Shown: positions 7,631-61,789 of the stretch, piece after piece | Position numbering within the stretch: position 1 is the first letter of the stretch | Layout: every line of letters starts with the position of its first letter | Virus record (IMG/VR): IMGVR_UViG_3300042261_000976 | Span: 4,627 to 68,626 of that record | From: a virus | Direction: 5' to 3' (one strand) | DNA length: 64,000 nucleotides | Program-made: the position numbers and the translations under genes | Notes under the pieces: generated by a model | Database searches by the model: none | What the model was told of the DNA's origin: nothing | The model's input: the letters and a program-made list of their open reading frames with translations, nothing else

Positions 7631-7783
7631 ATTTGCGAATTTTTATTTTAATATATATATTAAAACTTAAAAACCGATTATGATTAAAAGATTTAATATT
7701 TTCGAACAACATGTTATAGACATGGAAAAATTAGAGAAGAAGATTGGGATGAAACAGATCTTAAAGTCGGCGATTATATAAAA

Positions 7784-7981: not shown

Positions 7982-7984
7982 AAT

Positions 7985-11083: not shown

Positions 11084-11169
11084 ATTCTTATTTTATTTTT
11101 TTGAATAAGTATATATCAAAAATTAAAAAGCATTTTTTAATATATAGCATATACGAAAGAAATCATAAT

Positions 11170-13751: not shown

Positions 13752-13753
13752 AT

Positions 13754-15219: not shown

Positions 15220-15273
15220 AAATTTAATTTATTTTAACCGTAAATTATTTTAAATTTATTTGATTTCAATTTA

Positions 15274-16488: not shown

Positions 16489-16908
16489 TTATCGTGGAAA
16501 ATCTTTGCCTCTTTCAGCAAAATGAACCTCGTATGTTTTTGATTCAAATTGATTTATTAAATAATTTTTAATTTCTTCTGTTTCGAAATATTTGCAAGAA
16601 AATATATCTATAAAAACATAATTTTTCTTTGGAAATGTATGGATGGAACAATGCGACTCTGCAATTATAACAATCCCTGTTATGCCTTCATCTTCTGGCA
16701 CTAAACCGCTATACGGGAACACGTAGGGTTGTGTTATTTTAGTCATTCCTATCATATCTGGGATGTTGTATAGGAGTTCATAAATGAACTTGTAATCGTT
16801 TAGTTTTTCAACATTACACTCATTTAAATCAAACATTAAATGAGGACCAAAACTCGTGTTTTTCATCTCTTCATACTTATTATTTTTTAACTTAGTCCAT
16901 AAGAACAT
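16489..16908 (-). CDS. speH: S-adenosylmethionine decarboxylase proenzyme, prokaryotic SpeH/SpeD type
   Basis: GPHLMFDL..IIAESHCSIHTFPKKNYVFIDIFSC matches the pyruvoyl-AdoMetDC processing region. Confidence 0.7.
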   Translation of the reverse strand: MFLWTKLKNNKYEEMKNTSFGPHLMFDLNECNVEKLNDYKFIYELLYNIPDMIGMTKITQPYVFPYSGLVPEDEGITGIVIIAESHCSIHTFPKKNYVFIDIFSCKYFETEEIKNYLINQFESKTYEVHFAERGKDFPR

Positions 16909-23277: not shown

Positions 23278-23310
23278 AAAAAAGAGGGACTTAAGTCCCT
23301 CTTTTTTTTA
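23278..23310 (+). terminator. intrinsic terminator hairpin agagggac-ttaa-gtccctct + T8
   Basis: perfect palindrome immediately after dnaK stop; also serves the convergent minus gene. Confidence 0.55.
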
Positions 23311-24999
23311 TGTCCCATATGATATATCTGATGCTCCTCCAATATTCCACGTTGGACCTTTATAATCTTCATCTACCATAATTTTTCCTTCTCCACTACA
23401 ATCGTCACATTCTCCTCCCGTGCTTTTTCTGCCCCAACCTTTACAAGAAGGACATTCTATTTGTTTATAATGTTTTATTTTAGCTTTAGATTTTGGTTTT
23501 ACAACATCGTCAAATTGTTTATAAAAATCGTTTTCAATATTTGATTTTGGTTTTGATTTTGTTTTACTGGCTAAAAATGTACTTATTTCTTGTTCCTTTG
23601 ATTTTGATGATTTTACATTTTTAGATAGTTTTTCATCACTTGCACTCAAAGTGCCTGGTTCTACATACAATCTTAAAGTTTTCTCATCTTCATAATCTCC
23701 TCCGTGAAAAACTATCATCCATTTACCGTCTGTTTTTCTAACACCATCAAACTGTCCGATTTTACCATTATACTTACTACCTGGAAGATTATATTTAACG
23801 CGTTGTCCTTGTCGAAATGGTGAAGTAACTTTTTTACCAACAGGTTCCCATTTTCCTCCGCTATAATCACCATAATCTGAAGCTTTCTTAAAATCCCACC
23901 AATTATCATCATATGATTTATCGGTATCTACATATGGAGATATTTTCTTCTTTGGTTTCTCTACAACACCTAAACCTTGACAATGCTTACACGGTACTGG
24001 TAAAAGTAAGTCGTTCACATGATGTTGTGATGTTAAAGTATAACCTCTACCGTTACAATATTCACATTCATCGTATTTCGACGGATCTGGATTTCTTTTT
24101 TTCTTATTGTCGCCGTATGGCGATTTTTTCTTTTTTAATTGTGTTTCATTTGGTATAACTCCTTCGCCTCCACATTCATCACAAGGATCATCGTAAGTCG
24201 ACATAACAACACCGCTTCCCCCACATTCTTCGCATTCTGATCCGTCATTTAATTCTCCTTCTCCATCACATTCATCACAAGGATCTTCAGTTTCGATTTC
24301 TAAGGTTCCTGCCCCGTGGCAAATTGGACATTCTATGTCATCTTTATCTTCGTCTTCGTTTTCTTCTTCTTTGTCTAGTTTAAGAGCACGTAACATTTCT
24401 TCCTTTGAAATTTGTGGTAAATCTCGTCTCGCTCCGAAATCTGATATTTTCACCTTAAACGGTTCCGTTTGTTTTGGTTTTTCTTTTGGTTTAGTTGTAC
24501 CAACAACATCAACTATGCCTACTTTTCTAGCTATACTCCTTTCTCTCTCATCTTCTTCCCATGATTCTTCACCATAAGGATCTAAATCCTTCATAGCTTT
24601 TTCTTTCATATTATGTAGAATATAAGCACATTTATCTATCATGAAATCAAGAGTTTCCTTATGTTGTTCTCTTTTTGTTACTTTTATTCTTCTTTCATAA
24701 GTTTCTTGATTAAGATTATCTTTCGCTGTAAGTATATAAGTTATAACATCATCTACATCTACAATCTTCTTTATTGTAAATGTAAAATATTTCTCTACAC
24801 ACTTAGCTTCTTTCTCGTTACTATCTACTTCAAAATCATCATGTTTTAACATTCTTATTTCCTCTTCAGAGAATAAGTCAGCTGGACGTTTTTCTATTCT
24901 TTCGCGCTCTTCATCGTCGCGATGGTATTTTAGTTTACCAGAACTAAGTTTTCTTTTCAATTCTTCGTTTATCTTATTATATCTTTGAATATAATCCAT
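23308..24999 (-). CDS. DnaJ-type zinc-finger (7x CxxCxGxG) protein, no J domain; contains DPYGEESW
   Basis: CPICHGAG, CDECDGEG, CEECGGSG, CDECGGEG, CEYCNGRG, CKHCQGLG, CPSCKGWG, CDDCSGEG. Confidence 0.6.
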   Translation of the reverse strand: MDYIQRYNKINEELKRKLSSGKLKYHRDDEERERIEKRPADLFSEEEIRMLKHDDFEVDSNEKEAKCVEKYFTFTIKKIVDVDDVITYILTAKDNLNQETYERRIKVTKREQHKETLDFMIDKCAYILHNMKEKAMKDLDPYGEESWEEDERERSIARKVGIVDVVGTTKPKEKPKQTEPFKVKISDFGARRDLPQISKEEMLRALKLDKEEENEDEDKDDIECPICHGAGTLEIETEDPCDECDGEGELNDGSECEECGGSGVVMSTYDDPCDECGGEGVIPNETQLKKKKSPYGDNKKKRNPDPSKYDECEYCNGRGYTLTSQHHVNDLLLPVPCKHCQGLGVVEKPKKKISPYVDTDKSYDDNWWDFKKASDYGDYSGGKWEPVGKKVTSPFRQGQRVKYNLPGSKYNGKIGQFDGVRKTDGKWMIVFHGGDYEDEKTLRLYVEPGTLSASDEKLSKNVKSSKSKEQEISTFLASKTKSKPKSNIENDFYKQFDDVVKPKSKAKIKHYKQIECPSCKGWGRKSTGGECDDCSGEGKIMVDEDYKGPTWNIGGASDISYGT

Positions 25000-41123: not shown

Positions 41124-43313
41124 TTATTTTAAACTCAATATTCCATTCAATCTTTTACCTGTTCCGCAGTCTATTGGTGTTTGTGCCTTATTAGCACTTG
41201 CGAATATTTGATTACGCATTCCAGGGAAATAATTATCAATCCAATCTGTAGATTCGAATGTATAAAAACATCCTACAGCTGAAGGAATTTTTGGAGGAAG
41301 AACTAACAATTGATTTAAACTTTGTTTCTTCAAAGCTCCTTTATCATAAGCTAACAATCTAAAATCAGCAGCAGCAACTTGTGCGTTGGCTTGTAATTCA
41401 TCAAAAGGCGAAGAGTTCTTTAATTTGTTATTTCTAACATACATATAAAACATTCTTGTATTCTTAGTAGTTAAGACACCAGATTGAGATGGGTTTATTC
41501 TATTAAAATTAGTAGATGCTATATAAACGCCATTTAATAAATAACTTTGTTCACCAGGCACATATCTTATATCACCTTTGAAAAATTCATCATTAAATTT
41601 CTTATCTCCTTTTTGTTTGAAAGCCAAATTATTTATATCGAATATACAACTGGAATAATTTCTAGCCTCTTTTGGGAAATTTGGATCTTTTTGTTTATCA
41701 TCCTTTTTAATTCTCTCTATATCTATGTTACCTACATATTTATAAATAGATTCACCGCCAGAATTATGTAATTGTAAAACTGGATAATAAATCTGGCCTC
41801 CAATACTATATTGCATTACAAATAATCCTCTTTCTTGTTTCCATTCCTTTTCTTTGAAGAGTTTTAATCCAAAACCACCTTCTTCTATTTTTTGAGTAGT
41901 ATCTATAGGAATAGTATTGTTATTCATTCTTTTATAATAATCTTCTAACATAGGATCTCTTTTTCTATAAGCGTCTTGTAAATTCATAACTCTAAAAGGA
42001 TCAATAATATCTACATTTAGAAAATATGTCCATTGTCCTTTGACAGCATCAACTTTTCTTTCCCATACACTTCTTAAAGCTGAATCCTCATTAAAATCAA
42101 CTGCACCACCGACAGGAGGAGTCATTCCTTTGTAAGTTGGAGTTTGTTTAGTATGAAATATCATTCTTGCAGCAGCGTATTGTATTTTTCGAACACCTTC
42201 TACTGTTACCATTTTTGTTGCTCCTTCTTTGAATTCGGGATGTTTGCTCCACAATTCAGCACATCTTCCAAAGTCAATTTCGTCAACACTATTTATTCCT
42301 ATTGATTTAAGATATTCATAAGGTTTAACTTTTCCTGTGGTTGAACCACTAGTGCCACCAGGAACAGTATTTAATGTGTCACCAAGAACTTGCATTATTG
42401 GAACTTTAGGATTTAATTTACTTGTTATTTCTTCTAATAAAAATCCTTCAAATTCGCCTTGATAATCTTCTTGTGTTGGTTGTTCAGGTTCTGGTTGTGC
42501 TGGTGCTGGAGGATTTTCAGAGATTAAATTATTAATTTCTTGACATTTAGTTTTAATGGGTTCATTTTTACTAGTTATTAAAACATTAATAATTTTTTTC
42601 TCATTTTCTGTTAAATGATAATCTTTACAAGCTTTAGCGTCGCCATTTAAAAACGCTATTACTTGATCCAGTAAATCTATAATTATCTTTTCTTTTTCAG
42701 GATCGAATTGTTGCTCACTGTGGGTACAATATGGTTGTAATACAGCGAAAACATCTTTATTAATTTTCAATTTTATCTCTCCATATTTAACAGCCAATTC
42801 AGCTTGCTCTAACATTTCTTTCAATTCCTTCATGTCTTCTTCTTCTATATCGCCTTCATTCATTTGATTTCTTATAGTAGCTACAAATTCTTTGAATTTA
42901 CTTATAGTTTGTGCTAGAACATTCAAATTATCTTCAGAATAATCCATGTGCATAACTTCACAAATAAATGGATATTCCACATCATCATTTTGTTGTTGTG
43001 CAGGAGTTACATCAGCGTTAGCTTCTCCTTCTTTTTGAACCGCTTTTTCAACCATAGTACCATCTTTAATATTGATTTGTTTAATAGCACAAAATCTTAG
43101 CCAACCAGCAAAATATTCATTTTCTAGTTTTCTTTTAAGGTATTCTAATCTACCGATATCTATTCCTTGTTTGAAATATCTTAATATGCTAAATAAACCT
43201 CTACCAACCAAAGATTGAGAGAATTTTGTAGCATTTGAGAATTCATCCGGAATAGATGCCTCTTCTAATAATTTTTTAAATTTTTCAAAAGGTACTATAT
43301 TATCAAGTTCCAT
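41124..43313 (-). CDS. hypothetical large protein (729 aa), possible structural protein
   Basis: track ORF; no recognisable motifs. Confidence 0.55.
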   Translation of the reverse strand: MELDNIVPFEKFKKLLEEASIPDEFSNATKFSQSLVGRGLFSILRYFKQGIDIGRLEYLKRKLENEYFAGWLRFCAIKQINIKDGTMVEKAVQKEGEANADVTPAQQQNDDVEYPFICEVMHMDYSEDNLNVLAQTISKFKEFVATIRNQMNEGDIEEEDMKELKEMLEQAELAVKYGEIKLKINKDVFAVLQPYCTHSEQQFDPEKEKIIIDLLDQVIAFLNGDAKACKDYHLTENEKKIINVLITSKNEPIKTKCQEINNLISENPPAPAQPEPEQPTQEDYQGEFEGFLLEEITSKLNPKVPIMQVLGDTLNTVPGGTSGSTTGKVKPYEYLKSIGINSVDEIDFGRCAELWSKHPEFKEGATKMVTVEGVRKIQYAAARMIFHTKQTPTYKGMTPPVGGAVDFNEDSALRSVWERKVDAVKGQWTYFLNVDIIDPFRVMNLQDAYRKRDPMLEDYYKRMNNNTIPIDTTQKIEEGGFGLKLFKEKEWKQERGLFVMQYSIGGQIYYPVLQLHNSGGESIYKYVGNIDIERIKKDDKQKDPNFPKEARNYSSCIFDINNLAFKQKGDKKFNDEFFKGDIRYVPGEQSYLLNGVYIASTNFNRINPSQSGVLTTKNTRMFYMYVRNNKLKNSSPFDELQANAQVAAADFRLLAYDKGALKKQSLNQLLVLPPKIPSAVGCFYTFESTDWIDNYFPGMRNQIFASANKAQTPIDCGTGKRLNGILSLK

Positions 43314-43411: not shown

Positions 43412-44218
43412 GTGATAACCAAATTTGAACAATATACTTCAGAATCCAGATTAGTTGAATATATCAAAAAGTCTGAGCATGACCAAATGATCAGAGAATC
43501 TTCAGAATTCAACCAATACCAACTTGGCATTGATAATGCTGTTAGTTCTTTTGGTCCTGGTTATGGTTTCGCAACTGACCCAGGTTTATCAATATATTCA
43601 CCAGATTCAAATCCTTACGTTGATATGTACGCACGTACAGCAGGCACAACTAGCAAATTAATGCAAATTATCAAACAAGTTTCCAAAGAGATGATGGATG
43701 ACCATATATTTGCTAGAAAATCAGATAGATTCTTGGAAGATATAGATGAATATAAAAACCTAAAGATATTAAGAATATTCAATAATGAGAACTTAAAATT
43801 AAACATTTATATATCTTTCGATTTTATGGATCAAGAGTTTTTTGGAGTATTTAGGAATTTTAATGCAAATAATACAAAACCAACTTTTGATACCGAATTA
43901 TTAAGTGACCCTAAATTTAATTATATAGACAAAGAGTATTATCTTAAATTAAACCAATATATTTATAAGCTTGTTTATAATTGGTTCATTCCAAAAGCAG
44001 GAATGTATAAAAATTTGAAAGAAGATTGTCCAATAAAAGATGAAATGGGACAATTGAAATATCTTAAAGAAGGTAAAATTGTAGAAGTAATGGGATATAA
44101 TACAGATGAAAACAATGATCCCTTTGTTGTTTTAGAAATAGAAGGAAGAAAATTCAGTATAACAGGAAATAATTATTTCTGGTTTAACTATTGGTTTGAA
44201 CCAGTAACAATAAAATAA
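43412..44218 (+). CDS. hypothetical protein (GTG start) MITKFEQYTSE
   Basis: two TTAATATATA motifs upstream. Confidence 0.5.
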   Translation: MITKFEQYTSESRLVEYIKKSEHDQMIRESSEFNQYQLGIDNAVSSFGPGYGFATDPGLSIYSPDSNPYVDMYARTAGTTSKLMQIIKQVSKEMMDDHIFARKSDRFLEDIDEYKNLKILRIFNNENLKLNIYISFDFMDQEFFGVFRNFNANNTKPTFDTELLSDPKFNYIDKEYYLKLNQYIYKLVYNWFIPKAGMYKNLKEDCPIKDEMGQLKYLKEGKIVEVMGYNTDENNDPFVVLEIEGRKFSITGNNYFWFNYWFEPVTIK

Positions 44219-44225
44219 AATTATA

Positions 44226-44498
44226 ATGAACAATTTAAGAGCTTTTGAAGAATTTAATAATGTGGATCCATACGGTGAAGAAAAATGGAACGATGTGAAA
44301 GAAGAGACTTTAGATGGAGTTTTTTCTGTTATAAGTCAACATTATGAAGGGTATGCACCAACACTAGTAATTGCGGATTCCAAAGAAGAAGCTTTTCAAA
44401 AATATAACGATTGGGTTGATACTGAGCCACATGGAATCTATACTCCCAGACAATGTGAAGATATCGATCACGTTTTCGAAGCAAAAGCATTAAAATAA
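44226..44498 (+). CDS. small protein MNNLRAFEEFNNVDPYGEEKW..
   Basis: CTS-like leader directly followed by DPYGEE-W. Confidence 0.5.
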   Translation: MNNLRAFEEFNNVDPYGEEKWNDVKEETLDGVFSVISQHYEGYAPTLVIADSKEEAFQKYNDWVDTEPHGIYTPRQCEDIDHVFEAKALK

Positions 44499-44508
44499 AG
44501 ATTATTAA

Positions 44509-45051
44509 ATGGTAAGAACTTTTGAAGAATATAGATATATTAATTTCGGAATGTTTGATGGTGCTGGTAGTAAAAAAGATCCCAACGAACCATTTTTTCT
44601 TGCAAAAAAACATAAATATTTTCAAGATCAAAGAGATGAAGCAAGAAGACAAGAAAGAGAAGCAAGAAGACAACGAGATGATATTAACTATATCAATGGT
44701 CTGGAAGCGTCTAGAAACCAACTACCTTTAATAAATAGGTGTATAGATATAATAGAAAAAGATCCAGATTCTATTGTTAGAACTAAATATGAAGAATCAG
44801 ATTATGGTAGTGGAATATATGGAATTCTTTTAAAAAATAAAACAGTAATAGTAACTAGAATAGACGGGAGCGATAGAGTCTCTTACTTGAAAATAAATAA
44901 AGTACTAATGTCAAGCACTAAAGAAAAGAAAATAAATAAAGACGTTGATGTGTATGGTGAAGAAAATTGGGAAGACGATAATATAACACCGTATGAAAAA
45001 TTATCACGTTTAGTTAAAGATTACGTCGAACAAAATGAAATTATATTCTAA
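44509..45051 (+). CDS. hypothetical protein with DVYGEENW variant motif
   Basis: MVRTFEEYRY leader; ATGA-coupled to next gene. Confidence 0.5.
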   Translation: MVRTFEEYRYINFGMFDGAGSKKDPNEPFFLAKKHKYFQDQRDEARRQEREARRQRDDINYINGLEASRNQLPLINRCIDIIEKDPDSIVRTKYEESDYGSGIYGILLKNKTVIVTRIDGSDRVSYLKINKVLMSSTKEKKINKDVDVYGEENWEDDNITPYEKLSRLVKDYVEQNEIIF

Positions 45052-45968
45052 TGACAACTAAAGAATTACAAGATAGAATAGCACAATCATTCGAAATATT
45101 TGGGGATACTCCATTCGATGAAAGAATGGACGATATTCAAAAAGAATATTTTCACTTTATTAGATATAGAGACCCTAAAAATCTTAAAGAAGAAGTTGGA
45201 GATTTAGTTTCTAGTTTAATACAATTATGTAACGAAAAAGGTTGGGAATTAGATGATGTTATTGGTAATACTCTAAATAAAATAGATAGAAGAAAGGATC
45301 AATACGGATCTCTTGGTAGAAGAGTTCAAGTCGCAATATTAGGAGGAGCTTTCGATCCTATTCATAACGGACATATACAATTAGCACAACACGTATTAAA
45401 TTTAAGTGGCGTAATAGATGAAGTATGGCTAATGCCACCAGCATCACACATGTATGGTAAAAAAATGGAATCTGCTCAAGACAGATTAAATATGTGTAGA
45501 TTGGCAGCTGAAAGAGATAGAAGAATCAGAGTATTTAATTATGAAGTAGAACATAAATTAGCTGGAGAAACATATTTCTTTTTCAAGAAATTACTTGGAG
45601 AAAAGGAACTTAATGAAAAATATGAATTTTCAATGATAATTGGATTGGATAATGCTAATTTTTTTGATAAATGGGTTAATTATAAATATCTTGAAAGAAT
45701 GGTTAGATTTATCGTAGTTCCAAGAAAAGGAGTAACAAGAGATCCAAAAGTCGATTGGTACTTAAGACCGCCTCATGTTTTTATGAATGAAGAAACAGAG
45801 ATCATGGAAATATCATCAACTCAGGTGAGAAAGATGTTACAAGAAAATGATCCAAATATAACTAAATATTTAGATCCAAAAGTAGTTGATTATATAAAAG
45901 AAAATCATCTTTATGGTGTTGGCGGAGTTGTTGAAAAATATAATAATTTCGTAAAAAAATTAAAATAA
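45051..45968 (+). CDS. MazG-like NTP pyrophosphohydrolase fused to nicotinate/nicotinamide mononucleotide adenylyltransferase (NadD-like)
   Basis: N-term EEVGDLVSSLIQL MazG helix; then ILGGAFDPIHNGH (HxGH nucleotidyltransferase motif) and SxxxxR-like C-terminal region. Confidence 0.7.
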   Translation: MTTKELQDRIAQSFEIFGDTPFDERMDDIQKEYFHFIRYRDPKNLKEEVGDLVSSLIQLCNEKGWELDDVIGNTLNKIDRRKDQYGSLGRRVQVAILGGAFDPIHNGHIQLAQHVLNLSGVIDEVWLMPPASHMYGKKMESAQDRLNMCRLAAERDRRIRVFNYEVEHKLAGETYFFFKKLLGEKELNEKYEFSMIIGLDNANFFDKWVNYKYLERMVRFIVVPRKGVTRDPKVDWYLRPPHVFMNEETEIMEISSTQVRKMLQENDPNITKYLDPKVVDYIKENHLYGVGGVVEKYNNFVKKLK

Positions 45969-49319: not shown

Positions 49320-49378
49320 TAACTTTAATTATTTTTTATCTTACTTTTTTTATATATAGATAAAAAGTGGATCGAATT

Positions 49379-52312
49379 ATGATTAAATTGTTAGTTATTG
49401 AAGATCACCCAAGTATGATTTCCGGTTTAGAATGTTTATTAAAAGGAGATGTGGAAGTGACATTTTCATCTAATGATATGGATAATGCCTTGAATTTCGA
49501 TCATACTAAATTCGATATAATATTATTAGATTTATTATTACCAGAGACAAACCCTATAAATAATGTTAAGAGATTAAAAGAAATTTATCCAAACCCCATT
49601 GTTATATTTACTTGTGAAGATTCTAATTTATGGAAGAAAAAGATGTTTGATATTGGTGTCATGGGTTATTTAATCAAAACATCTAATAAGGAAAAAATAG
49701 TAACTACTTTACATCAAGTTTTAAAAGAGTTTAAAAGAGATAAAGAATTGCAATATCCAAACTTGAAAATATGTAATCTAGATTTTTTTAATTTTTTAGA
49801 TGATATGTTTTTTGTTTTAGACTTAAAGGGAAACATTATAGAGTATAATACAAGTGTAACAAGAAAACTTAGATATTTAAAAGAAGATTTGATTGGTAAA
49901 AATATACAAAAATTTTTCAATAGTGATGTATCTTCTATTTTTACTGGTGAATATTCTAATAAAAGAATTCCAATTTTAAATTCAGATGGAAATAGTTTAT
50001 TCGTAGAAATACGAAGTTTAAAAATACACGCTAGATGTAGCTTAGAAGATTATTTATTAATAGTAGCGAAAGATATAGAAGCAGAGGAGAAATATAAAAA
50101 TATTTTTGATAATTCTACTCAAGGAATTTTTCAATCTACAATGGATGGGAAGTATATTACAGTAAATCCGGCTTTTGCTCAATTATGTGGATATGAAAGT
50201 CCTGAAGAATTATCTACTAGTGTTAAAAATATTTCAGATCAAATATACGCAAATAAAAGCGATAGAGATCAATTTCTAGATACATTATTAAAATATGGTA
50301 AAGTAAAAAATGCCGAAGGACAAATCAAAAGAAAAGACGGCGATAAAATATGGGTTTCTTGTAGTGCTAAATTAATAAAAAATAAAGACGGAACACCATT
50401 ATACATAGATGGTATAATAGATAATATCACAGATAAAAAAGATACAATAGAAAATTATATTTCTTTATTGAAAGCTATTCCGGATATGATGGTCAGAGTG
50501 AGAAAAGACGGTCTTATTATGGATATAAAACCAGGTGAAGGAACATATTCTGAATTAGGACAATCTACTCATTACATAGGTGGAAATATAGGGAATTTAC
50601 CGTTTGGTGATGTAATAACGACTAAATTTAAAAATATTATAAAAGAGGTTATTGAAAAAGAAGAACCTATTGAATTTTGTTATGCTATTTTTATTAAAGG
50701 AATTGAAAGGAATTATTATTCAAGAACTGTAAAGAATGGTGAAAGTGAAGTTATAGTAATAGTCAGAGAAATAACAGAAGAAATAAATATAAGAAATGAT
50801 TTAACATATTCCAGAGATTATTCTGAAAATATAATCAATACAGCAAATGCCATGATTATAGAATTAGATAATAGTGGCAATATAATCACTTTCAATAAGG
50901 CAGCTGAAGAGGTTACTGGATATAAAAAAGAAGAACTTTTTGGTAAAAATTGGTTCGAAACATTATGTCCCAAAGATAGATTCCCTCATGTGTGGGAAGA
51001 ATTCAATGGATTGATGAAACAAAAAATAGAGGCTAAAGACTTTGAAAATCCAATTCTTACAAAGAGCGGGGAAGAGAGATATATTGTTTGGAAAAACAAT
51101 GAAGTAAAATCTAATAATAAAGTCGTGGGTGTAATATCTTTCGGTCTTGATATAACAGAAATGAAAAAGACATCGGAGGAATTAAAAATAGCCAAGGAAA
51201 AAGCAGAGCAATCAGATAAAATGAAATTAGAATATCTTTCTAACATGAGTCACGATCTTCGTACCCCAATGAATGCTATTATAGGATTTACAGATTTATT
51301 AAGAGCTAATAATCTAACCAAAAACGAAAAACACGATTATATTAATACTATTATAAATAACGGTAAATATTTGATGGCTCTTATAGACGATATTATTGAC
51401 ATTTCTAAAATTGACGCTGGAAGTCTTAAAGTAGAAAATAGAGATTTTGAAATAAATAAACTCATGGAAGAACTTCGTCTTTCATATATAAAACAAATTA
51501 AAGATAAAAATATAGAAATTATAATAGATATAGATGTTAATAAAAATATTATAATACAATCTGATAAATATAGACTAAGACAAATTATGGCAAATCTTAT
51601 AGGAAACGCTATAAAATTTACAAACGATGGTTATGTCAAATTCGGATATAAAATACTGAATAATAGAATGTTAGAAATATATGTTGAAGATACAGGTCCA
51701 GGTATAGAGAAACAAAATCAGAAAATAATTTTTGAAAGATTTAAGCAATTAAATGATACCAATAAATATAAAGGAGCTGGACTTGGTTTGTCTATAAGTA
51801 AATCTTTGGTTGAACTATTAGGATTTAAAGAAATAAAATTAGTATCTGAATTTGGTAATGGTAGTAGATTTTATTTTAATGTGCCTTACGATGTGAAAAA
51901 TTTTACTTATATGTCTGATATTAAAGAAAGAAAACATAAGAAAATAAATTTTGCTGGAAAAAATATTCTTTTAGTAGAAGATAATAGAGATAGTAGAACA
52001 ATTATGAAATCTTATCTACAAGATACAAAAGCCAATGTTATAGAAATGAAAGATGGTATTGGTATATTAGATGTTATAAAAGAAAAAGAAATAGATTTAG
52101 TTTTATTGGATATTGGTCTTCCTGGAGGTAAAAATGGTTATGTAATATTAGAAGAAATAAAAAATTATGATAACAGATTACCAGTTATTATAGAATCAGC
52201 TTTAGCTATGCCGGATCAAAAAAATAAGGCATATGATTTAGGATGTGATGATTTTATATCCAAACCTTTCAATAGGGAAGATTTTCTAAACAAAATAGAT
52301 AACTTACTATAA
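49379..52312 (+). CDS. hybrid sensor histidine kinase: REC - 3x PAS - HisKA - HATPase_c - REC
   Basis: start at ATG 49379 (MIKLLVIEDH); ILLDLLLP Asp pocket; MSHDLRTPMNAI H-box; NLIGNAIKFT / DTGPGI / GAGLGLSISK N,G boxes; C-terminal ILLVEDN..LVLLDIGLPG receiver. Confidence 0.8.
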   Translation: MIKLLVIEDHPSMISGLECLLKGDVEVTFSSNDMDNALNFDHTKFDIILLDLLLPETNPINNVKRLKEIYPNPIVIFTCEDSNLWKKKMFDIGVMGYLIKTSNKEKIVTTLHQVLKEFKRDKELQYPNLKICNLDFFNFLDDMFFVLDLKGNIIEYNTSVTRKLRYLKEDLIGKNIQKFFNSDVSSIFTGEYSNKRIPILNSDGNSLFVEIRSLKIHARCSLEDYLLIVAKDIEAEEKYKNIFDNSTQGIFQSTMDGKYITVNPAFAQLCGYESPEELSTSVKNISDQIYANKSDRDQFLDTLLKYGKVKNAEGQIKRKDGDKIWVSCSAKLIKNKDGTPLYIDGIIDNITDKKDTIENYISLLKAIPDMMVRVRKDGLIMDIKPGEGTYSELGQSTHYIGGNIGNLPFGDVITTKFKNIIKEVIEKEEPIEFCYAIFIKGIERNYYSRTVKNGESEVIVIVREITEEINIRNDLTYSRDYSENIINTANAMIIELDNSGNIITFNKAAEEVTGYKKEELFGKNWFETLCPKDRFPHVWEEFNGLMKQKIEAKDFENPILTKSGEERYIVWKNNEVKSNNKVVGVISFGLDITEMKKTSEELKIAKEKAEQSDKMKLEYLSNMSHDLRTPMNAIIGFTDLLRANNLTKNEKHDYINTIINNGKYLMALIDDIIDISKIDAGSLKVENRDFEINKLMEELRLSYIKQIKDKNIEIIIDIDVNKNIIIQSDKYRLRQIMANLIGNAIKFTNDGYVKFGYKILNNRMLEIYVEDTGPGIEKQNQKIIFERFKQLNDTNKYKGAGLGLSISKSLVELLGFKEIKLVSEFGNGSRFYFNVPYDVKNFTYMSDIKERKHKKINFAGKNILLVEDNRDSRTIMKSYLQDTKANVIEMKDGIGILDVIKEKEIDLVLLDIGLPGGKNGYVILEEIKNYDNRLPVIIESALAMPDQKNKAYDLGCDDFISKPFNREDFLNKIDNLL

Positions 52313-57996: not shown

Positions 57997-58962
57997 ATGA
58001 TTAAATTTGATTTACTAATTGATGGAAATTATCTTCTACAAAAATCAGTACATATACTTCACAAAAATAAAATACTAGCTTCTGAATTATACAACGTAAT
58101 AGAAAGAGACTACATTACACTTACAAAATTATATCCCTTCGACAAAATATACTTTATATCTGATAGTTTTAAAAACTGGAGAAAAGAATTTTTCAATGAT
58201 TATAAAGGAACAAGAAAACGCGATGATAAAATAGATTGGGAATTTGTATATAGTGAATTCTCCAAACTAAAAGAATATCTCAAATCGAAAAGGAATTGCA
58301 TTCAATATCAAATTGAAAGTCTTGAAGGCGATGATATAATAGCGTATTTAACTAATACATTGAACAATAAAGGACATTCTGTTTTCATTATGTCTAATGA
58401 TAGTGACTTATTTCAACTAATACACTATGACACAGATAAGAGATATATTAATATGATGTATAACTCTAAAATGACAGATGATAAAATATACATACCACAA
58501 CACTACACTATATTTACGAAATATATTAAAGACACATATGTTGATGATATGTTTGAAGATAACAACGAAATAGAATTCTTAGAATTTCTTAATAATTTTA
58601 CGAGAACAAGAAAAATATCTTATATTGACTCTGAAATGGAACTTTTCCAAAAAATAATGGGACATAATAAAGATAACATAAAGTCTGTTTATATGAGAGG
58701 AGATCGTGGTATTGGAAAGAATGGTATAGATAAGATATATAAAATGTATAAAGATACTTATCCAGAACCAATTGATTTTAATTCTGAAATTTTCAAACAA
58801 AGAATAATAGATCATATAAAACTATATAAAAGATTAAAAGATAGCTCTATGGATGATTCTATGAATGAGAGATTGAAAAGGAATATGAAACTTGTCAAAT
58901 TGGATAAAGATTCTATGCCTGAATATCTTTATAAAAATATGGTAAAGGAGATTAAACTATGA
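57997..58962 (+). CDS. rnh: T4-type RNase H / 5'-3' flap exonuclease (FEN family)
   Basis: LLIDGNYLLQKS; ISDS..WRKEFFNDYKGTRK; GDDIIAYL; SNDSDLFQL collinear with T4 rnh motifs. Confidence 0.75.
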   Translation: MIKFDLLIDGNYLLQKSVHILHKNKILASELYNVIERDYITLTKLYPFDKIYFISDSFKNWRKEFFNDYKGTRKRDDKIDWEFVYSEFSKLKEYLKSKRNCIQYQIESLEGDDIIAYLTNTLNNKGHSVFIMSNDSDLFQLIHYDTDKRYINMMYNSKMTDDKIYIPQHYTIFTKYIKDTYVDDMFEDNNEIEFLEFLNNFTRTRKISYIDSEMELFQKIMGHNKDNIKSVYMRGDRGIGKNGIDKIYKMYKDTYPEPIDFNSEIFKQRIIDHIKLYKRLKDSSMDDSMNERLKRNMKLVKLDKDSMPEYLYKNMVKEIKL

Positions 58963-59378
58963 CTCTTAAAGAATGGATAAAAAAAGTAGTATATGGTATA
59001 GAGCCTGTGGTTGACATACCAAACATCGAACCTATTGTTCAAGGAAATGTTAGAAGATATGTGATTCCAGTTGGCGGAATGACAAGAAAGGAAGCAGAAC
59101 GCCAAATAGTGGAGTTGATGAACACATACAACGATGATGTTAAATGGGACGAAAACAACGGAGAATTAAATATAAATGGAAATACACAAATTCCATTTCA
59201 AAAGGATTATTGGTTTCCTCAAGAAAATTGGTCAAAAACATATAAGAAATTTGTGAAATCTTTTACACCAGAACAGCAAAAGATGATGGAAGAATCTAGA
59301 TTAATTTATAATAGGTGTGGACCACATCACCCAAGAAGAGTATTTACTATACCAATAGGCAAGAAAAAAGAGGACTAA
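58959..59378 (+). CDS. hypothetical protein
   Basis: ATGA-coupled to rnh. Confidence 0.4.
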   Translation: MTLKEWIKKVVYGIEPVVDIPNIEPIVQGNVRRYVIPVGGMTRKEAERQIVELMNTYNDDVKWDENNGELNINGNTQIPFQKDYWFPQENWSKTYKKFVKSFTPEQQKMMEESRLIYNRCGPHHPRRVFTIPIGKKKED

Positions 59379-59392
59379 GTCCTCTTTTTTAT
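59366..59392 (+). terminator. hairpin gaggac-taa-gtcctc + T6
   Basis: right after stop of 58959..59378. Confidence 0.45.
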
Positions 59393-59724
59393 ATCTGTAT
59401 TTTTTTAATACAAGTTCTTTTATCGTCTGTTATTCTCATCAAATACAATCCCTTAGATAGTTTTTTATTAATAATATCTTCTTTATTTATTTGCTCGTCT
59501 ATGACTTTCATTCCCAATATATCATATATTGTATATTGAATTGGTTCGTCAGTCTTTATAAAAAAATCAACACTATCATTGTTTGATTTTATATATACTT
59601 CAACTTTATAACTTTCAGTCGTAACACTTGTCCATTTTTCATTAGAATTTAATGAAAAAGATCTTTGTATTCCACCCAAAAACATTAAGATAGAAAATAC
59701 AAATAATAATAAAATTCTTTTCAT
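59389..59724 (-). CDS. secreted protein with signal peptide and Por/T9SS C-terminal sorting domain
   Basis: start at MKRILLLFVFSILMFLGG (59724); C-term YTIYDILGMKVIDEQ..KLSKGLYLMRITDDKRTCIKKIQI matches T9SS CTD pattern. Confidence 0.55.
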   Translation of the reverse strand: MKRILLLFVFSILMFLGGIQRSFSLNSNEKWTSVTTESYKVEVYIKSNNDSVDFFIKTDEPIQYTIYDILGMKVIDEQINKEDIINKKLSKGLYLMRITDDKRTCIKKIQI

Positions 59725-59760
59725 AAGCAATTTATTTTTTTTTAATCCATATATATAAAA

Positions 59761-59792
59761 AACAAAATCCGTCTTTTCAGACGGATTTTGTA
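59761..59792 (-). terminator. hairpin aaatccgtct-tttc-agacggattt
   Basis: 10-bp stem 3' of gene 59798..60316. Confidence 0.45.
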
Positions 59793-59797
59793 ATTTA

Positions 59798-60316
59798 TTA
59801 ATTATCATACTCTTTTGTTCCTTCAAGTCGGCTTTTGAATTCTTCCAGAACTATTTGCAAGCTAGATGTTATATTGCCTAAAATTTCTTTTTCCATTTTA
59901 TCTCTATCTTCTTTAACTTTATCATCAAACATTCTGCTCATTTTTGATGATGTTTTTTCTGGTAGATCAATATCATATCTATATTGGTGATTTACTATAG
60001 TTAATTTACCGCTTTCGAGAATAAGAAATGTGTTTATTTCGTTATTTATAACATATTGTTTGCTAACGATATATTTCTTATATGACATTCCAACATTCAA
60101 ATATCTTATATTATTTTCGTCATTCAAAGATATTTTGAATATGTCAAAAGCTAATTTTTGAACTGGGTTCAAAACATCGTCTTTATCTATTTTTTTCCAG
60201 ATGTTTTGAAATGTTCTGGATAATAGATTTTTTCTTTTTATAGAGGACGTATCGTCCTCCATTCTTACTGGTTTTTCCATCTTAATTTTGTTTAACAGGA
60301 TAAATTCTAACATCAC
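59798..60316 (-). CDS. hypothetical protein
   Basis: track ORF. Confidence 0.45.
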   Translation of the reverse strand: MMLEFILLNKIKMEKPVRMEDDTSSIKRKNLLSRTFQNIWKKIDKDDVLNPVQKLAFDIFKISLNDENNIRYLNVGMSYKKYIVSKQYVINNEINTFLILESGKLTIVNHQYRYDIDLPEKTSSKMSRMFDDKVKEDRDKMEKEILGNITSSLQIVLEEFKSRLEGTKEYDN

Positions 60317-60555: not shown

Positions 60556-61074
60556 TTACTTTTTTGGATTTATCATAACCCAAAGTCTTTTCCCGTCCAT
60601 CTTCGGTAAAGATTCAGCCTTACCATATTCCGATAATGCATCAATGAACTTAAGCAATAAGATATTACCAATATCCGTATAGTTATTCTCTCTTCCAGAG
60701 AAGAAAACTGAAGCCTTTACTTTATCTCCTTCCTGGAGAAAACTAATAGCATGTCTCAACTTAAAGTTGAAGTCGTGATCTCCGGTGTTATAAGTAAATC
60801 TTAATTCTTTAACTTTAACTTTTTTATTATTTTGTTTTTGAAGCTTGTCTTTTTGTTTCCTTTCATATAAAAGTTTACCATAATCAACTATCTTACATAT
60901 AGGAGGTTTTGCATTCGGTGAAATTTCTACTAAATCTAACCCCATTTCATCGGCAACCTTTAATGCCTCTTGGATGCTAACTACTTTAGTTTCAATTCCT
61001 TCACCGACGATTCTTACTTCGTCTACTCCTCTAATCTGTTTGTTGATTCTTTCTGTTGCTTCTTTTTTGTTCAT
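60556..61074 (-). CDS. infC: translation initiation factor IF-3
   Basis: VVSIQEALKVADEMGLDLVEISPNAKPPICKIVDYGKLLYE..VKELRF..GDHDF..KLRHAISFL collinear with bacterial IF-3; no rpmI/rplT downstream. Confidence 0.8.
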   Translation of the reverse strand: MNKKEATERINKQIRGVDEVRIVGEGIETKVVSIQEALKVADEMGLDLVEISPNAKPPICKIVDYGKLLYERKQKDKLQKQNNKKVKVKELRFTYNTGDHDFNFKLRHAISFLQEGDKVKASVFFSGRENNYTDIGNILLLKFIDALSEYGKAESLPKMDGKRLWVMINPKK

Positions 61075-61100: not shown

Positions 61101-61385
61101 TTAATAAAGTCCGTCAACTCTAAAAATTATATCGTCTTCTATATCTTGACGATTAAGACCTTTCCTTGTAGAAACCATTACTCTATAAGGATCGTATTCT
61201 GGATTCTCCCACTCGGGAAGAGGCCATTCTTTTCCATCCATCTCTTTTACTACTATTCTAAATCTCATATCCAAACCAGACATTAACATTATATCTACAA
61301 CTTCTCCTAGAGAATTTGTGATTAAAAAATCAAAACTTGGCGGATCTGTACTAACTGGATATTTGTAAGGATATACATATTTCAT
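61101..61385 (-). CDS. hypothetical protein
   Basis: track ORF. Confidence 0.4.
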   Translation of the reverse strand: MKYVYPYKYPVSTDPPSFDFLITNSLGEVVDIMLMSGLDMRFRIVVKEMDGKEWPLPEWENPEYDPYRVMVSTRKGLNRQDIEDDIIFRVDGLY

Positions 61386-61789
61386 ACTAATTCCGGATTA
61401 TGTTTTAAGAAATTACGTACATAACTTCTAATATTAGCAGCCCCAATATTGTTGAAGGAATGAACCATTATAGTTGGAAATTTTTCATTATTATCCAAAC
61501 AATAATCACACAACCACTTGGCACACTCATACCCTGTTTTTTCTTTATAAGAGAAGTAATCAATAACTCCATCTACAGACCAAAGCATATCATCTCTACC
61601 ATAATGTTCATCAGCTAAATCATGATCGAAAGAAACAAGACTGGGGACTCCTTCATTCTGAATAATCTTGACGAAATTTTCATAATTTCTAACTATGATC
61701 CATTCTAGCTTAGAATATCTTGTGTCTCTCATATAATTGAAGGCATCAAGCGGGACACGTATATCATCAAGAAATAAATTGTAATTCAT
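61382..61789 (-). CDS. hypothetical protein
   Basis: ATGA-coupled. Confidence 0.45.
   Translation of the reverse strand: MNYNLFLDDIRVPLDAFNYMRDTRYSKLEWIIVRNYENFVKIIQNEGVPSLVSFDHDLADEHYGRDDMLWSVDGVIDYFSYKEKTGYECAKWLCDYCLDNNEKFPTIMVHSFNNIGAANIRSYVRNFLKHNPELV

What the first reader, a model, noticed from the sequence alone, without database searches (positions are those of the whole stretch)
45051..45968. MazG-NMNAT fusion protein
A single ORF joins a MazG-type all-alpha NTP pyrophosphohydrolase domain (EEVGDLVSSLIQL) to a NadD-like nicotinate/nicotinamide mononucleotide adenylyltransferase (GGAFDPIHNGH).

This may link alarmone or nucleotide pool clearance to NAD+ regeneration. That is relevant to countering NAD-depleting host defences such as Thoeris, TIR and SIR2 systems. 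As far as I know, this fusion is not a standard architecture.
Basis: partly seen in the sequence, partly recalled or inferred. Interest (0 to 1): 0.5.

Follow-up and report, generated by a model that had tools for sequence, protein, structure and literature searches.

The report
MazG–NadD fusion enzyme, huge phage
A huge bacteriophage encodes one protein joining a small MazG-type nucleotide pyrophosphatase to a normal-looking NAD-synthesis enzyme (NadD); the fusion is real, widespread and undescribed, and relatives place it in a phage pathway that rebuilds NAD+ from nicotinamide, but what the MazG half does is unknown.

Summary
Window 45051..45968 (+) is one uninterrupted 305-aa ORF. Residues 1-88 form a four-helix MazG-type domain and residues 92-289 a NadD-type adenylyltransferase with both catalytic motifs intact.

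The window comes from an AT-rich huge phage that is syntenic with the 735-kb phage LR756501. The fusion is not a one-off: more than 100 protein clusters share it, on contigs up to 735 kb. Both domains are under purifying selection.

In one sub-clade the fusion sits inside an island with nicotinamidase PncA, PncB, NadE, NadR, a Macro domain, and in some loci PnuC. LR756501 carries the same island about 400 kb from its fusion gene, contrary to a published statement.

The NadD half is therefore most likely the NaMN adenylyltransferase step of a phage-encoded Preiss-Handler pathway. This MazG subtype occurs almost only fused to NAD enzymes, including MazG-NadD-NAD kinase proteins on Planctomycetota chromosomes, so it is an NAD-pathway accessory module. 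Its substrate is unknown.

My best guess is proofreading or regulation, by analogy with NadD-YqeK and NadM-Nudix. The alarmone idea has no support. I rate this a new variant of a known kind, of moderate interest.

The parts
45051..45968 (+). Complete ORF (305 aa plus stop) encoding the MazG-NadD fusion. Its ATG overlaps the TAA stop of the upstream 180-aa ORF (TAATG).
   Evidence: ORF and sequence; domains; identical protein P0001 on a 114-kb contig, plus more than 100 homologous clusters
45051..45314 (+). N-terminal MazG-type all-alpha NTP pyrophosphohydrolase domain (aa 1-88), four helices: 3-17, 22-37, 42-63, 67-88.
   Evidence: Pfam PF03819 33.6 bits, above gathering cut-off 22. The domain profile hits the active C-terminal domain of E. 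coli MazG, 3cra, E 6.7e-6. AF2 models have pLDDT about 93. Foldseek top hits are 3cra, 5ie9, 2gta and 7ody with TMq 0.71-0.77.
45144..45155 (+). First metal-binding motif of the MazG domain, E32-x-x-H35. It aligns to E172-x-x-E175 of E. coli MazG. Position 35 is His in the window's clade and Glu in most relatives.
   Evidence: alignment; residue census (E32 in 105/106; position 35 is E in 83 and H in 21)
45189..45203 (+). Second metal-binding motif of the MazG domain, E47-E48-V-G-D51 (the canonical EExGD).
   Evidence: E47 in 106/106, E48 in 105/106, D51 in 105/106
45315..45323 (+). End of the inter-domain linker (aa 89-91, G89-R90 invariant). In the model, low confidence spans roughly aa 81-90.
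   Evidence: pLDDT 58 for the block aa 81-90; Q84, Y85, G89, R90 invariant in 106 sequences
45324..45917 (+). C-terminal NadD-type nicotinate (nicotinamide) mononucleotide adenylyltransferase domain (aa 92-289), Rossmann-like HIGH nucleotidyltransferase fold.
   Evidence: TIGR00482 118.4 bits, above cut-off 112.45. PDB NadD matches at E 1e-19 to 1e-20. Foldseek matches B. anthracis, E. faecium and B. subtilis NadD with TMt 0.82-0.89.
45342..45374 (+). ATP-binding signature G-G-A-F-D-P-I-H-N-G-H, the (H/T)xGH motif, aa 98-108.
   Evidence: (G98, P103, H108 in 106/106; position 105 is H in 64 and T in 42, both canonical)
45810..45830 (+). Second NadD signature I-S-S-T-Q-V-R (ISSTxxR), aa 254-260.
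   Evidence: S255 and S256 in 106/106, T257 in 104/106, R260 in 100/106
43412..45051 (+). Three co-directional upstream ORFs: 43412-44218 (268 aa), 44226-44498 (90 aa) and 44509-45051 (180 aa). They form one + strand block with the fusion gene, flanked by minus-strand genes. None has a family match. Only the 268-aa ORF is conserved next to the fusion in LR756501 and L016.

Best explanation
The ORF encodes a bifunctional enzyme of a huge phage whose host is probably a Bacteroidota bacterium.

NadD half: it adenylylates nicotinate mononucleotide (NaMN + ATP -> NaAD + PPi). This supplies the third step of a phage-encoded Preiss-Handler route: nicotinamide -> PncA -> nicotinate -> PncB -> NaMN -> NadD -> NaAD -> NadE -> NAD+. 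The route keeps up or rebuilds the NAD+ pool during infection, and a NadR nicotinamide-riboside branch runs alongside it. The remaining genes lie elsewhere in the genome of this lineage.

MazG half: it is a small metal-dependent pyrophosphohydrolase module that has become a dedicated accessory of NAD(P)-synthesis enzymes. It most likely polices the nucleotides handled by the adenylyltransferase. It could destroy non-cognate (d)NTP donors or mis-made or excess pyridine dinucleotides, as the HD domain does in NadD-YqeK and the Nudix domain in NadM-Nudix.

Shown: the fusion, the domain identities, motif conservation, purifying selection, the pathway context in relatives, and the exclusive association of this MazG subtype with NAD enzymes.

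Inferred: NaMN preference, catalytic activity of either domain, the MazG substrate, and any anti-defence benefit.
For: - Domain identity and intact motifs.
- Conservation across 106 homologs: MazG acidic ligands E32, E/H35, E47, E48, D51 and basic K77, R81; NadD H/T105, H108, S255, S256, T257, R260. Mean column entropy is 1.13 bits for the MazG domain against 1.03 for NadD.
- Pairwise dN/dS is below 1 for both domains. Window vs LR756501 gives 0.31 and 0.10; L021 vs L026 gives 0.09 and 0.20.
- Phage origin: synteny with LR756503 and huge viral contigs, plus phage genes in the window.
- Pathway context: in L018, L019, L027 and L031 the fusion lies within a few kb of Isochorismatase/nicotinamidase (4 loci), NAPRTase with NAPRTase_N (3), NAD synthase (3), AAA_28/NadR (2), PnuC (1) and Macro. 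The nicotinamidase is confirmed by PDB 2wt9, E 1e-31.
- LR756501 has PncA-like, NadR (8x7f, E 4e-39), NadE (2e18, E 3e-41) and PncB (55% identity) clustered at about 423-431 kb.
- MazG subtype specificity: the profile finds only 97 representatives at E<=1e-10 among 1.84 billion proteins. Nearly all sit at the N-terminus of NadD-containing proteins. Some are MazG-NadD-NTase-NAD kinase or MazG-NTase-NAD kinase proteins of Planctomycetota.
- The short 'stand-alone' hits with roughly 45-55% identity to the domain that I inspected are truncations still carrying the start of NadD.
- Precedent: the YqeK HD domain fused to NadD hydrolyses NaAD analogues made from wrong NTPs, 8-oxo-GTP and Ap4A (bioRxiv 10.1101/2021.12.01.470718). 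A Nudix domain is fused to phage and bacterial NadM (PMC9503650 and PMC7824862).
Against: - No partner gene lies in this 64-kb window, so pathway membership for this particular phage is extrapolated from relatives.
- In the window's clade one canonical MazG metal ligand is His instead of Glu.
- About 60 of roughly 330 family sequences, including the Planctomycetota kinase fusions, have lost E32 and other acidic ligands. This shows the domain can be retained without the canonical catalytic set and weakens the hydrolase/proofreading reading.
- The AF2 inter-domain arrangement is uncertain (pTM 0.67, flexible linker), so no active-site juxtaposition can be claimed.
- No biochemical data exist for any member.
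- NaMN versus NMN preference cannot be read from sequence.
Confidence: 0.55

Rival explanations
1. The MazG-like domain is non-catalytic. It serves as a dimerisation scaffold or as a nucleotide or pyridine-nucleotide sensing regulatory domain for the attached NAD enzymes, and the NadD half does all the chemistry.
For: Many family members, including the Planctomycetota MazG-NadD-NadK proteins, have Q/R at position 32 and have lost position 35 and often 48. They still keep the subfamily-specific residues R25, D28, E62, W65, K/R77, R81, Y85 and R90. The window's own clade has H35. Single-domain MazG proteins are obligate dimers or tetramers (established knowledge), so the domain would in any case oligomerise the fusion.
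Against: In the phage lineages the full acidic set is kept: EEEED in 182 sequences and EHEED in 24. K77 and R81 align to the triphosphate-binding K/R of E. coli MazG. The domain is as conserved as NadD. A His can still ligate Mn2+ or Zn2+.
Confidence: 0.2
2. These are two unrelated activities fused for convenience. The MazG half would be an ordinary phage 'house-cleaning' or dNTP-pool-shaping pyrophosphatase, for example removing particular dNTPs as cyanophage MazG or S-2L MazZ do, with no functional tie to NAD synthesis.
For: Stand-alone MazG genes are common in phages (PMC7824862). The structural neighbours include cyanophage S-2L MazZ, 7ody. The window also encodes dUTPase, and relatives encode dCMP deaminase.
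Against: This MazG subtype is almost never found outside NAD enzymes. The fusion persists from 45% to 85% identity. It recurs with NAD kinase in Planctomycetota, even without a recognisable NadD (P0210, P0245). The apparent stand-alone copies closest to the fusion, those I inspected, are truncated fusions.
Confidence: 0.12
3. One reading: the MazG half clears alarmones such as (p)ppGpp or immune signalling nucleotides, while the NadD half works with a NadV/NAMPT partner as a NARP2-like counter-defence against Thoeris, TIR or SIR2 NAD+ depletion.
For: Phage NAD+ reconstitution is an established counter-defence: NARP1 and NARP2 (bioRxiv 10.1101/2024.02.11.579819) and NARP3 (PMC13464706). Macro-domain and NAD-salvage genes flank the fusion in relatives.
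Against: No NAMPT was found. The phosphoribosyltransferase partner carries NAPRTase_N and is PncB-type, and it is accompanied by nicotinamidase and NadE. The adenylyltransferase is NadD-type, not NadM-Nudix. Homologous fusions are housekeeping genes on Planctomycetota chromosomes. No data link this MazG subtype to ppGpp or to cyclic or ADPR-derived signals.
Confidence: 0.08
4. The MazG half is an NAD+/NaAD pyrophosphatase that limits or buffers dinucleotide levels, creating a regulated futile cycle. This is what has been proposed for the Nudix domain of NadM.
For: Published proposals for NadM-Nudix (PMC9503650 and PMC7824862). NARP2 expression overproduces NAD+ and is toxic in E. coli, so a brake could be useful. 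The invariant E62 and W65 could form a pyridinium-binding pocket, which is speculation on my part.
Against: Known MazG enzymes cleave the alpha-beta bond of nucleoside triphosphates. NAD+ hydrolysis by MazG proteins is asserted only in review-level text (PMC12143786). There is no structural evidence for a dinucleotide pocket.
Confidence: 0.05

Closest known systems
NadD-YqeK fusion (NaMN adenylyltransferase + HD-domain hydrolase) of Mycoplasma and the nadD-yqeK operon of Firmicutes
   Same: A NadD-family adenylyltransferase is covalently joined to a small metal-dependent nucleotide pyrophosphohydrolase. The hydrolase was shown to cleave NaAD analogues made from wrong NTPs, 8-oxo-GTP and Ap4A, which amounts to proofreading or sanitising. 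NCBIfam NF005519, the model for that fusion, matches only the NadD half here.
   Different: The hydrolase here is an all-alpha MazG-type domain, not an HD domain. It is N-terminal rather than C-terminal. It occurs in huge phages and Planctomycetota rather than Firmicutes and Mollicutes. No biochemistry exists.
NadM-Nudix / KVP40 NatV (NMN adenylyltransferase + Nudix ADP-ribose pyrophosphatase), the Nmnat of phage pathway NARP2
   Same: It is a phage-encoded pyridine-mononucleotide adenylyltransferase fused to a pyrophosphohydrolase and embedded in a phage NAD+ salvage gene set.
   Different: The adenylyltransferase subfamily differs (NadD, TIGR00482, rather than NadM). The hydrolase fold differs (MazG rather than Nudix). 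The pathway partners differ: PncA, PncB and NadE on the deamidated route rather than Nampt. PHROG 3462 for phage NMNAT matches only weakly, E 0.03.
Canonical MazG / YpjD / cyanophage MazG and S-2L MazZ (single-domain all-alpha NTP pyrophosphohydrolases)
   Same: The four-helix fold, the EExGD motif and the K...R motif are shared. The Pfam MazG gathering score is passed, and these are the top structural neighbours.
   Different: Sequence identity is only 18-26%. The first motif is ExxH in this clade. Subfamily-specific invariants R25, D28, E62, W65 and Y85 are present. The domain is fused to NAD enzymes instead of standing alone or occurring in tandem.
Phage-encoded Preiss-Handler clusters in 'NAD-jumbo phages' (pncB-nadD-nadE, e.g. 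Kuafu_71; Microbiome 2024, PMC11662467)
   Same: These are jumbo or huge phages carrying pncB, nadD and nadE. That paper lists the nadD of the 735-kb phage, which is 73% identical to the window's protein.
   Different: The paper does not mention the MazG domain. It states that the 735-kb phage has only nadD, whereas I find PncA, PncB, NadE and NadR clustered at about 423-431 kb of LR756501.

Membership tests
NadD (nicotinate-nucleotide adenylyltransferase, TIGR00482 / EC 2.7.7.18) | Profile score above the curated equivalog cut-off | tested here: met
   118.4 bits against a cut-off of 112.45, aa 96-288 covering model positions 1-194 of 194
NadD (nicotinate-nucleotide adenylyltransferase, TIGR00482 / EC 2.7.7.18) | GxFxPx(H/T)xGH ATP-binding motif and ISSTxxR motif | tested here: met
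   GGAFDPIHNGH at aa 98-108 and ISSTQVR at aa 254-260. H108, S255 and S256 are invariant in 106 homologs.
NadD (nicotinate-nucleotide adenylyltransferase, TIGR00482 / EC 2.7.7.18) | NadD-type Rossmann fold | tested here: met
   AF2 model with pLDDT 88.5. Foldseek matches 2qtm, 3e27, 8aih and 1kaq with TMt 0.82-0.89 and E about 1e-15.
NadD (nicotinate-nucleotide adenylyltransferase, TIGR00482 / EC 2.7.7.18) | Genomic association with the other Preiss-Handler genes (pncB, nadE) | tested here: inconclusive
   Met in relatives L018, L019, L027 and L031, and in LR756501 at a distance. Not met within this 64-kb window. The rest of this phage's genome is not available.
NadD (nicotinate-nucleotide adenylyltransferase, TIGR00482 / EC 2.7.7.18) | Catalytic activity and preference for NaMN over NMN | not testable with these tools
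   Requires an enzyme assay. G172, E173, T174 and W208 align with the NaMN-site region of Bacillus NadD, which rests on my own knowledge plus the alignments, but this does not fix specificity.
MazG (PF03819, all-alpha NTP pyrophosphohydrolase superfamily) | Profile score above the Pfam gathering threshold | tested here: met
   33.6 bits against 22, aa 31-83. The family profile against the PDB hits E. coli MazG at E 6.7e-6.
MazG (PF03819, all-alpha NTP pyrophosphohydrolase superfamily) | Four-helix all-alpha fold | tested here: met
   The N-domain model has pLDDT 93.3. The top Foldseek hits are all MazG, YpjD, MazZ and then HisE, with TMq 0.71-0.77 and probability 1.00.
MazG (PF03819, all-alpha NTP pyrophosphohydrolase superfamily) | ExxE(12-28)ExxD metal-binding signature | tested here: inconclusive
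   The window has E32-x-x-H35, then 12 residues, then E48-x-x-D51, so three of four acidic ligands are present and the fourth is His. Eighty-three of 106 relatives have Glu at position 35. A Q32 sub-lineage has lost the first motif.
MazG (PF03819, all-alpha NTP pyrophosphohydrolase superfamily) | Conserved Lys/Arg on helix 4 for triphosphate binding | tested here: met
   K77 and R81 align to the K...R of the E. coli MazG C-terminal domain. K77 is present in 105/106 and R81 in 106/106.
MazG (PF03819, all-alpha NTP pyrophosphohydrolase superfamily) | Dimer/tetramer assembly and NTP -> NMP + PPi activity | not testable with these tools
   No multimer modelling or assay is available.
NARP2 (phage Nampt + Nmnat NAD+ reconstitution pathway) | Nampt (NadV) partner making NMN from nicotinamide + PRPP | tested here: not met
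   No NAPRTase-family gene lies in the window. In relatives the phosphoribosyltransferase carries NAPRTase_N and is about 400 aa, which is PncB-type, and a nicotinamidase and NadE accompany it. A dedicated NAMPT search of LR756501 was not done.
NARP2 (phage Nampt + Nmnat NAD+ reconstitution pathway) | NadM/NatV-type Nmnat, usually fused to Nudix | tested here: not met
   The adenylyltransferase scores as NadD. The NadM/NadR models TIGR01526, NF002243 and NF003791 give E 0.001-0.03, far below their cut-offs. There is no Nudix domain.
NadD-YqeK bifunctional enzyme (NF005519) | C-terminal HD-domain (YqeK) hydrolase | tested here: not met
   NF005519 matches only model positions 2-184 of 361, at 115 bits against a cut-off of 315. 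There is no HD domain. The resemblance is functional analogy only.

The most novel reading that the evidence does not exclude
The MazG-like domain would be a previously unrecognised, dedicated 'NAD-pathway' module. It would be a third, independently evolved way, after Nudix and HD/YqeK, of coupling a pyridine-nucleotide adenylyltransferase (and NAD kinase) to a pyrophosphohydrolase or sensor that proofreads or gates dinucleotide synthesis.

In huge phages it would belong to a nicotinamidase-initiated Preiss-Handler NAD+ reconstitution pathway (PncA-PncB-MazG/NadD-NadE, effectively a 'NARP4') that rebuilds NAD+ from the nicotinamide released by TIR and SIR2 defences.
Probability: 0.3. Interest if true: 0.65.

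Novelty: new variant of a known kind. Interest (0 to 1): 0.5.

Why it matters
Phage NAD+ reconstitution is a current topic, with NARP1, NARP2 and NARP3 described between 2024 and 2026. A deamidated, nicotinamidase-initiated route in huge phages has only been catalogued, not tested. The MazG add-on gives a concrete question that can be answered with a few enzyme assays: why do NMN/NaMN adenylyltransferases repeatedly acquire a nucleotide pyrophosphohydrolase (Nudix, HD and now MazG)?

The same module sits on the housekeeping NadD/NadK of Planctomycetota. This points to a general metabolic role, either fidelity or regulation of NAD(P) synthesis, rather than a phage-only trick.

The work also corrects the literature: the largest published phage genome (735 kb) encodes a complete Preiss-Handler pathway plus NadR, not nadD alone.

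Tried and rejected
- Frameshift or stop between the domains: rejected.
- Chance or assembly artefact: rejected, because of more than 100 independent clusters.
- NAD partner genes in the window: Pfam scans of all ORFs of at least 120 aa (except four of 121-129 aa) and tblastn with the L027 island proteins found none.
- A universally conserved neighbour: clustering of ORFs from 31 loci found none. There are only sub-clade-specific neighbours: the NAD island, cREC, YqeY and bactofilin.
- Stand-alone ancestors of this MazG subtype: the short hits with roughly 45-55% identity to the domain that I inspected are frameshifted or truncated fusions. A few more distant proteins of about 100 aa (P0203, P0214, P0222) may be genuine stand-alone MazGs, but I did not pursue them.
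- Cellular origin of the window: rejected. Only 5 loci turned up in 185,579 species genomes. They are an AT-rich contig in a Methanothrix MAG that is probably a mis-binned phage, one Planctomycetota locus with bacterial context and a frameshift between the domains, and three Spirochaetales stand-alone NadDs at 46-49% identity.
- Regulatory signals: promoter-like sites occur at chance level, and there are no terminators or Rfam hits, including NAD+ riboswitches.
- Literature: no paper in the library combines MazG with NadD or NMNAT as a fusion. The NARP3 paper is about PnuC + NadR.
- The afdb50 fold library was unavailable. BFVD contains no two-domain match.
- dN/dS values are only rough, because dS is near saturation at 0.6-1.4.
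Full report
**1. Observation**

Window 45051..45968 (+) is one uninterrupted ATG-to-TAA ORF of 305 aa. Its start codon overlaps the stop of the upstream 180-aa ORF (TAATG).

- Pfam finds MazG (PF03819, aa 31-83, 33.6 bits, gathering cut-off 22) and CTP_transf_like (PF01467, aa 96-261, 64.7 bits).
- NCBIfam's NadD equivalog TIGR00482 matches aa 96-288 end to end at 118.4 bits, above its curated cut-off of 112.45.
- The best solved-structure relatives by sequence are NadD enzymes: E. faecium 8aih and B. subtilis 1kam, E about 1e-19 to 1e-20. The GGxFxPxHxGH and ISSTxxR motifs are aligned in these matches.

**2. What genome this is**

The window is 29% G+C with no tRNA genes. The nearest record is the 735,411-bp 'uncultured phage' LR756501/LR756503, 73% identical over the full length. 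Gene order around the fusion is shared with that phage: a very large ORF upstream, and a PAS/HisKA/receiver hybrid kinase downstream.

The window also encodes the following:
- typical phage functions: a lysin amidase, a phage metallopeptidase, a T4-portal-like fragment, dUTPase and a 5'-3' exonuclease;
- huge-phage 'cellular' genes: Hsp70, a DnaJ-type zinc-finger protein, IF3, AdoMet decarboxylase and an MVP-shoulder/SPFH protein.

A type IX secretion sorting domain hints at a Bacteroidota host.

**3. The fusion is a conserved family**

A search of 5.8 billion proteins gave 506 hits. The best 120 are all 55-85% identical proteins of about 290-310 aa, nearly all precomputed as PF03819+PF01467. 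They sit on contigs up to 735, 669, 501, 400 and 323 kb that look like, or are classified as, huge phages.

Residue conservation across 106 homologs:

| Domain | Residue | Conservation |
|---|---|---|
| MazG | E32 | 105/106 |
| MazG | position 35 | E in 83, H in 21 (window clade) |
| MazG | E47 | 106/106 |
| MazG | E48 | 105/106 |
| MazG | D51 | 105/106 |
| MazG | K77 | 105/106 |
| MazG | R81 | 106/106 |
| NadD | position 105 | H in 64, T in 42 |
| NadD | H108 | 106/106 |
| NadD | S255, S256 | 106/106 |
| NadD | T257 | 104/106 |
| NadD | R260 | 100/106 |

Mean column entropy is similar for the two halves, 1.13 against 1.03 bits. Pairwise dN/dS is below 1 for both halves, although dS is near saturation.

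The short 'stand-alone MazG' hits with roughly 45-55% identity to the domain that I inspected still carry the first residues of NadD (…AILGGAFNP…). They are frameshifted or truncated fusions, so the fusion is ancestral in this clade.

**4. Structure**

AlphaFold2 on the 106-sequence alignment gives pLDDT 88.5 and pTM 0.67. The model has a four-helix N-domain, a low-confidence linker around aa 81-90 and a Rossmann-type C-domain.
- The C-domain superposes on B. anthracis, E. faecium and B. subtilis NadD with TMt 0.82-0.89.
- The N-domain modelled alone (pLDDT 93.3) has as top PDB neighbours E. coli MazG (3cra), Bacillus MazG (5ie9), YpjD (2gta) and cyanophage S-2L MazZ (7ody), followed by HisE. 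TMq is 0.71-0.77.

A profile of the N-domain aligns to the catalytically active C-terminal domain of E. coli MazG. E32 pairs with E172, position 35 with E175, EExGD with EEMGD, and K77/R81 with the K…R pair. No predicted viral structure in BFVD matches both domains.

**5. Pathway context**

No NAD gene other than the fusion is in the 64-kb window. No neighbour is conserved across the whole family.

In one sub-clade (L018, L019, L027, L031) the fusion is embedded in an NAD island. The families and the number of loci carrying each are:
- Isochorismatase: 4
- NAPRTase with NAPRTase_N: 3
- NAD_synthase: 3
- CN_hydrolase: 2
- AAA_28: 2
- NMN_transporter: 1
- a Macro domain and an HD_4 protein

The gene map of L027 is:

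| Coordinates in L027 | Gene |
|---|---|
| 1234-2118 | NadE |
| 3173-3892 | nicotinamidase (PDB 2wt9, E 1e-31) |
| 7540-8736 | PncB |
| 9962-10858 | MazG-NadD fusion |
| 11135-13090 | TonB-dependent receptor |
| 13290-13766 | Macro |
| 15000-16031 | NadR-like |

Using these proteins as probes, I found the same island in LR756501 at about 423-431 kb, roughly 400 kb from its fusion gene. It contains a PncA-like gene, NadR (8x7f, E 4e-39), a TonB-dependent receptor, NadE (2e18, E 3e-41) and PncB (55% identity). This contradicts the statement in PMC11662467 that the 735-kb phage carries only nadD.

The partners are thus those of the deamidated Preiss-Handler route plus a NadR branch, not NadV/NAMPT. 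This fits the NadD (NaMN-type) identity of the adenylyltransferase.

**6. The MazG subtype is tied to NAD enzymes beyond phages**

An exhaustive profile search of 1.84 billion representative proteins finds only 237 hits at E<=1e-3 and 97 at E<=1e-10. Most are N-terminal domains of proteins of about 300 aa. Longer hits have these architectures:
- MazG-NadD-(second nucleotidyltransferase-like domain)-NAD kinase: P0171, P0181, P0184
- MazG-(nucleotidyltransferase-like)-NAD kinase: P0210, P0245
- N-extension-MazG-NadD: P0165

The kinase fusions are chromosomal genes of Rubripirellula/Pirellulales (Planctomycetota). They lie in housekeeping neighbourhoods with glmS, leuCD and ECF sigma factors. A two-domain version, frameshifted between the domains, lies next to mutS in another Planctomycetota MAG.

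A motif census shows two forms:
- an intact form: EEEED in 182 sequences and EHEED in 24, the latter including the window;
- a degenerate 'Q32' form that has lost several acidic ligands and includes the Planctomycetota proteins.

All forms keep the subfamily-specific residues R25, D28, E62, W65, K/R77, R81, Y85 and R90.

**7. Mechanism**

*Well supported:* the C-terminal half is a functional NadD that supplies the NaMN-to-NaAD step of a phage-encoded NAD+ salvage pathway.

*Inferred:* the MazG half is an accessory of NAD(P) synthesis. The best analogies are two known fusions.
- NadD-YqeK: the fused HD hydrolase cleaves NaAD analogues made with wrong NTPs, 8-oxo-GTP and Ap4A.
- NadM-Nudix of phages and bacteria.

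I therefore favour a proofreading, sanitising or level-control role. In the phage lineages this would be carried out by a catalytically competent domain. The degenerate Q32 forms, and the E-to-H change in the window's clade, keep a non-catalytic scaffold or sensor role as a serious rival.

Nothing supports alarmone hydrolysis. An anti-defence benefit against TIR, SIR2 or Thoeris NAD+ depletion is plausible by analogy with NARP1-3 and from the adjacent Macro and nicotinamidase genes, but it is untested. The cellular homologs show that the fusion itself is not a defence-specific invention.

**8. Novelty and verdict**

The nadD of the 735-kb phage has been listed in the literature. Phage Preiss-Handler clusters have also been catalogued. 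Surveys of viral NAD systems describe only NadV, NadM-Nudix and NadR. I found no description of the MazG-NadD architecture or of this NAD-dedicated MazG subtype.

I classify it as a new variant of a known kind: an NMN/NaMN adenylyltransferase fused to a pyrophosphohydrolase. Interest is moderate at 0.5. However, the NadD function is conventional and the role of the MazG half remains conjecture.

Noticed in passing
LR756501.1 423,000-431,500 (locus L033: 5002-13475, minus strand): The 735-kb huge phage carries a clustered NAD island of nicotinamidase, NadR, a TonB-dependent receptor, NadE and PncB. This contradicts the statement in PMC11662467 that nadD is its only NAD-synthesis gene. A TonB-dependent outer-membrane receptor is conserved inside the island (also in L027 and L018), which suggests phage-directed uptake of a vitamin B3 compound.
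   Followed up: partly
Proteins P0171, P0181, P0184, P0210, P0245; locus L032 8001-10292: Planctomycetota (Rubripirellula/Pirellulales) chromosomes encode proteins of 556-763 aa that combine this MazG subtype with NadD, a second HIGH-like nucleotidyltransferase domain with a degenerate motif (…FDPPT/S…), and NAD kinase. The MazG acidic motif is degenerate in them (QKESD).
   Followed up: partly
window 21466-23277 (+) and 23308-24999 (-): A full-length Hsp70/DnaK (E 1.6e-235) lies next to a 563-aa protein with repeated DnaJ-type CxxCxGxG zinc fingers, so the phage encodes its own chaperone pair.
   Followed up: no
window 30785-33202 (-): An 805-aa protein has Major Vault Protein shoulder and Vault_3 repeat domains plus a weak SPFH/Band 7 match. 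This is unusual in a phage.
   Followed up: no
window 49367-52312 (+): A 981-aa hybrid sensor histidine kinase has three PAS domains, HisKA, HATPase and two receiver stretches. It is conserved downstream of the fusion gene in LR756503 and L016.
   Followed up: no
window 59389-59826 (-), 60556-61074 (-), 16489-16908 (-), 17042-19330 (-): These ORFs encode a type IX secretion C-terminal sorting domain (a hint of a Bacteroidota host), translation initiation factor IF3, S-adenosylmethionine decarboxylase, and a 762-aa TPM-domain protein.
   Followed up: no
window 61382-61789 (-); L014 710-1102; L021, L022, L023, L026 upstream of the fusion: A cREC (cyclic-phosphate-processing receiver) domain gene recurs 0.4-4 kb upstream of the fusion in one sub-clade and lies about 15 kb away in the window. 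A YqeY-like gene also recurs upstream in L004, L021, L022 and L026. cREC is linked in the literature to RNA-repair and NAD-ADPr systems that also include MazG (PMC9503650).
   Followed up: partly
window 34329-38336 (-) and 41124-43313 (-): Very large ORFs of 1335 aa and 729 aa have no family match. Their homologs (1691 aa and 688 aa) are syntenic in LR756503.
   Followed up: no
Loci L010-L012 (Spirochaetales MAGs, e.g. L010 7941-8612): The closest stand-alone cellular NadD (223 aa, 46-49% identical to the phage NadD domain) lies in a bacterial context in three Spirochaetales MAGs. It is a possible donor or recipient lineage for the NadD half.
   Followed up: partly
Protein P0165 (445 aa, 367-kb contig): This variant has an extra N-terminal domain of about 150 aa (MKLGLDLHGVID…, possibly HAD-like) ahead of MazG-NadD, and its MazG motif is degenerate (QSEKD).
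   Followed up: no
window 58959-59378 (+): A 139-aa ORF matches only positions 207-264 of the T4 portal protein (Gp20) profile. It may be a portal fragment or a split gene.
   Followed up: no
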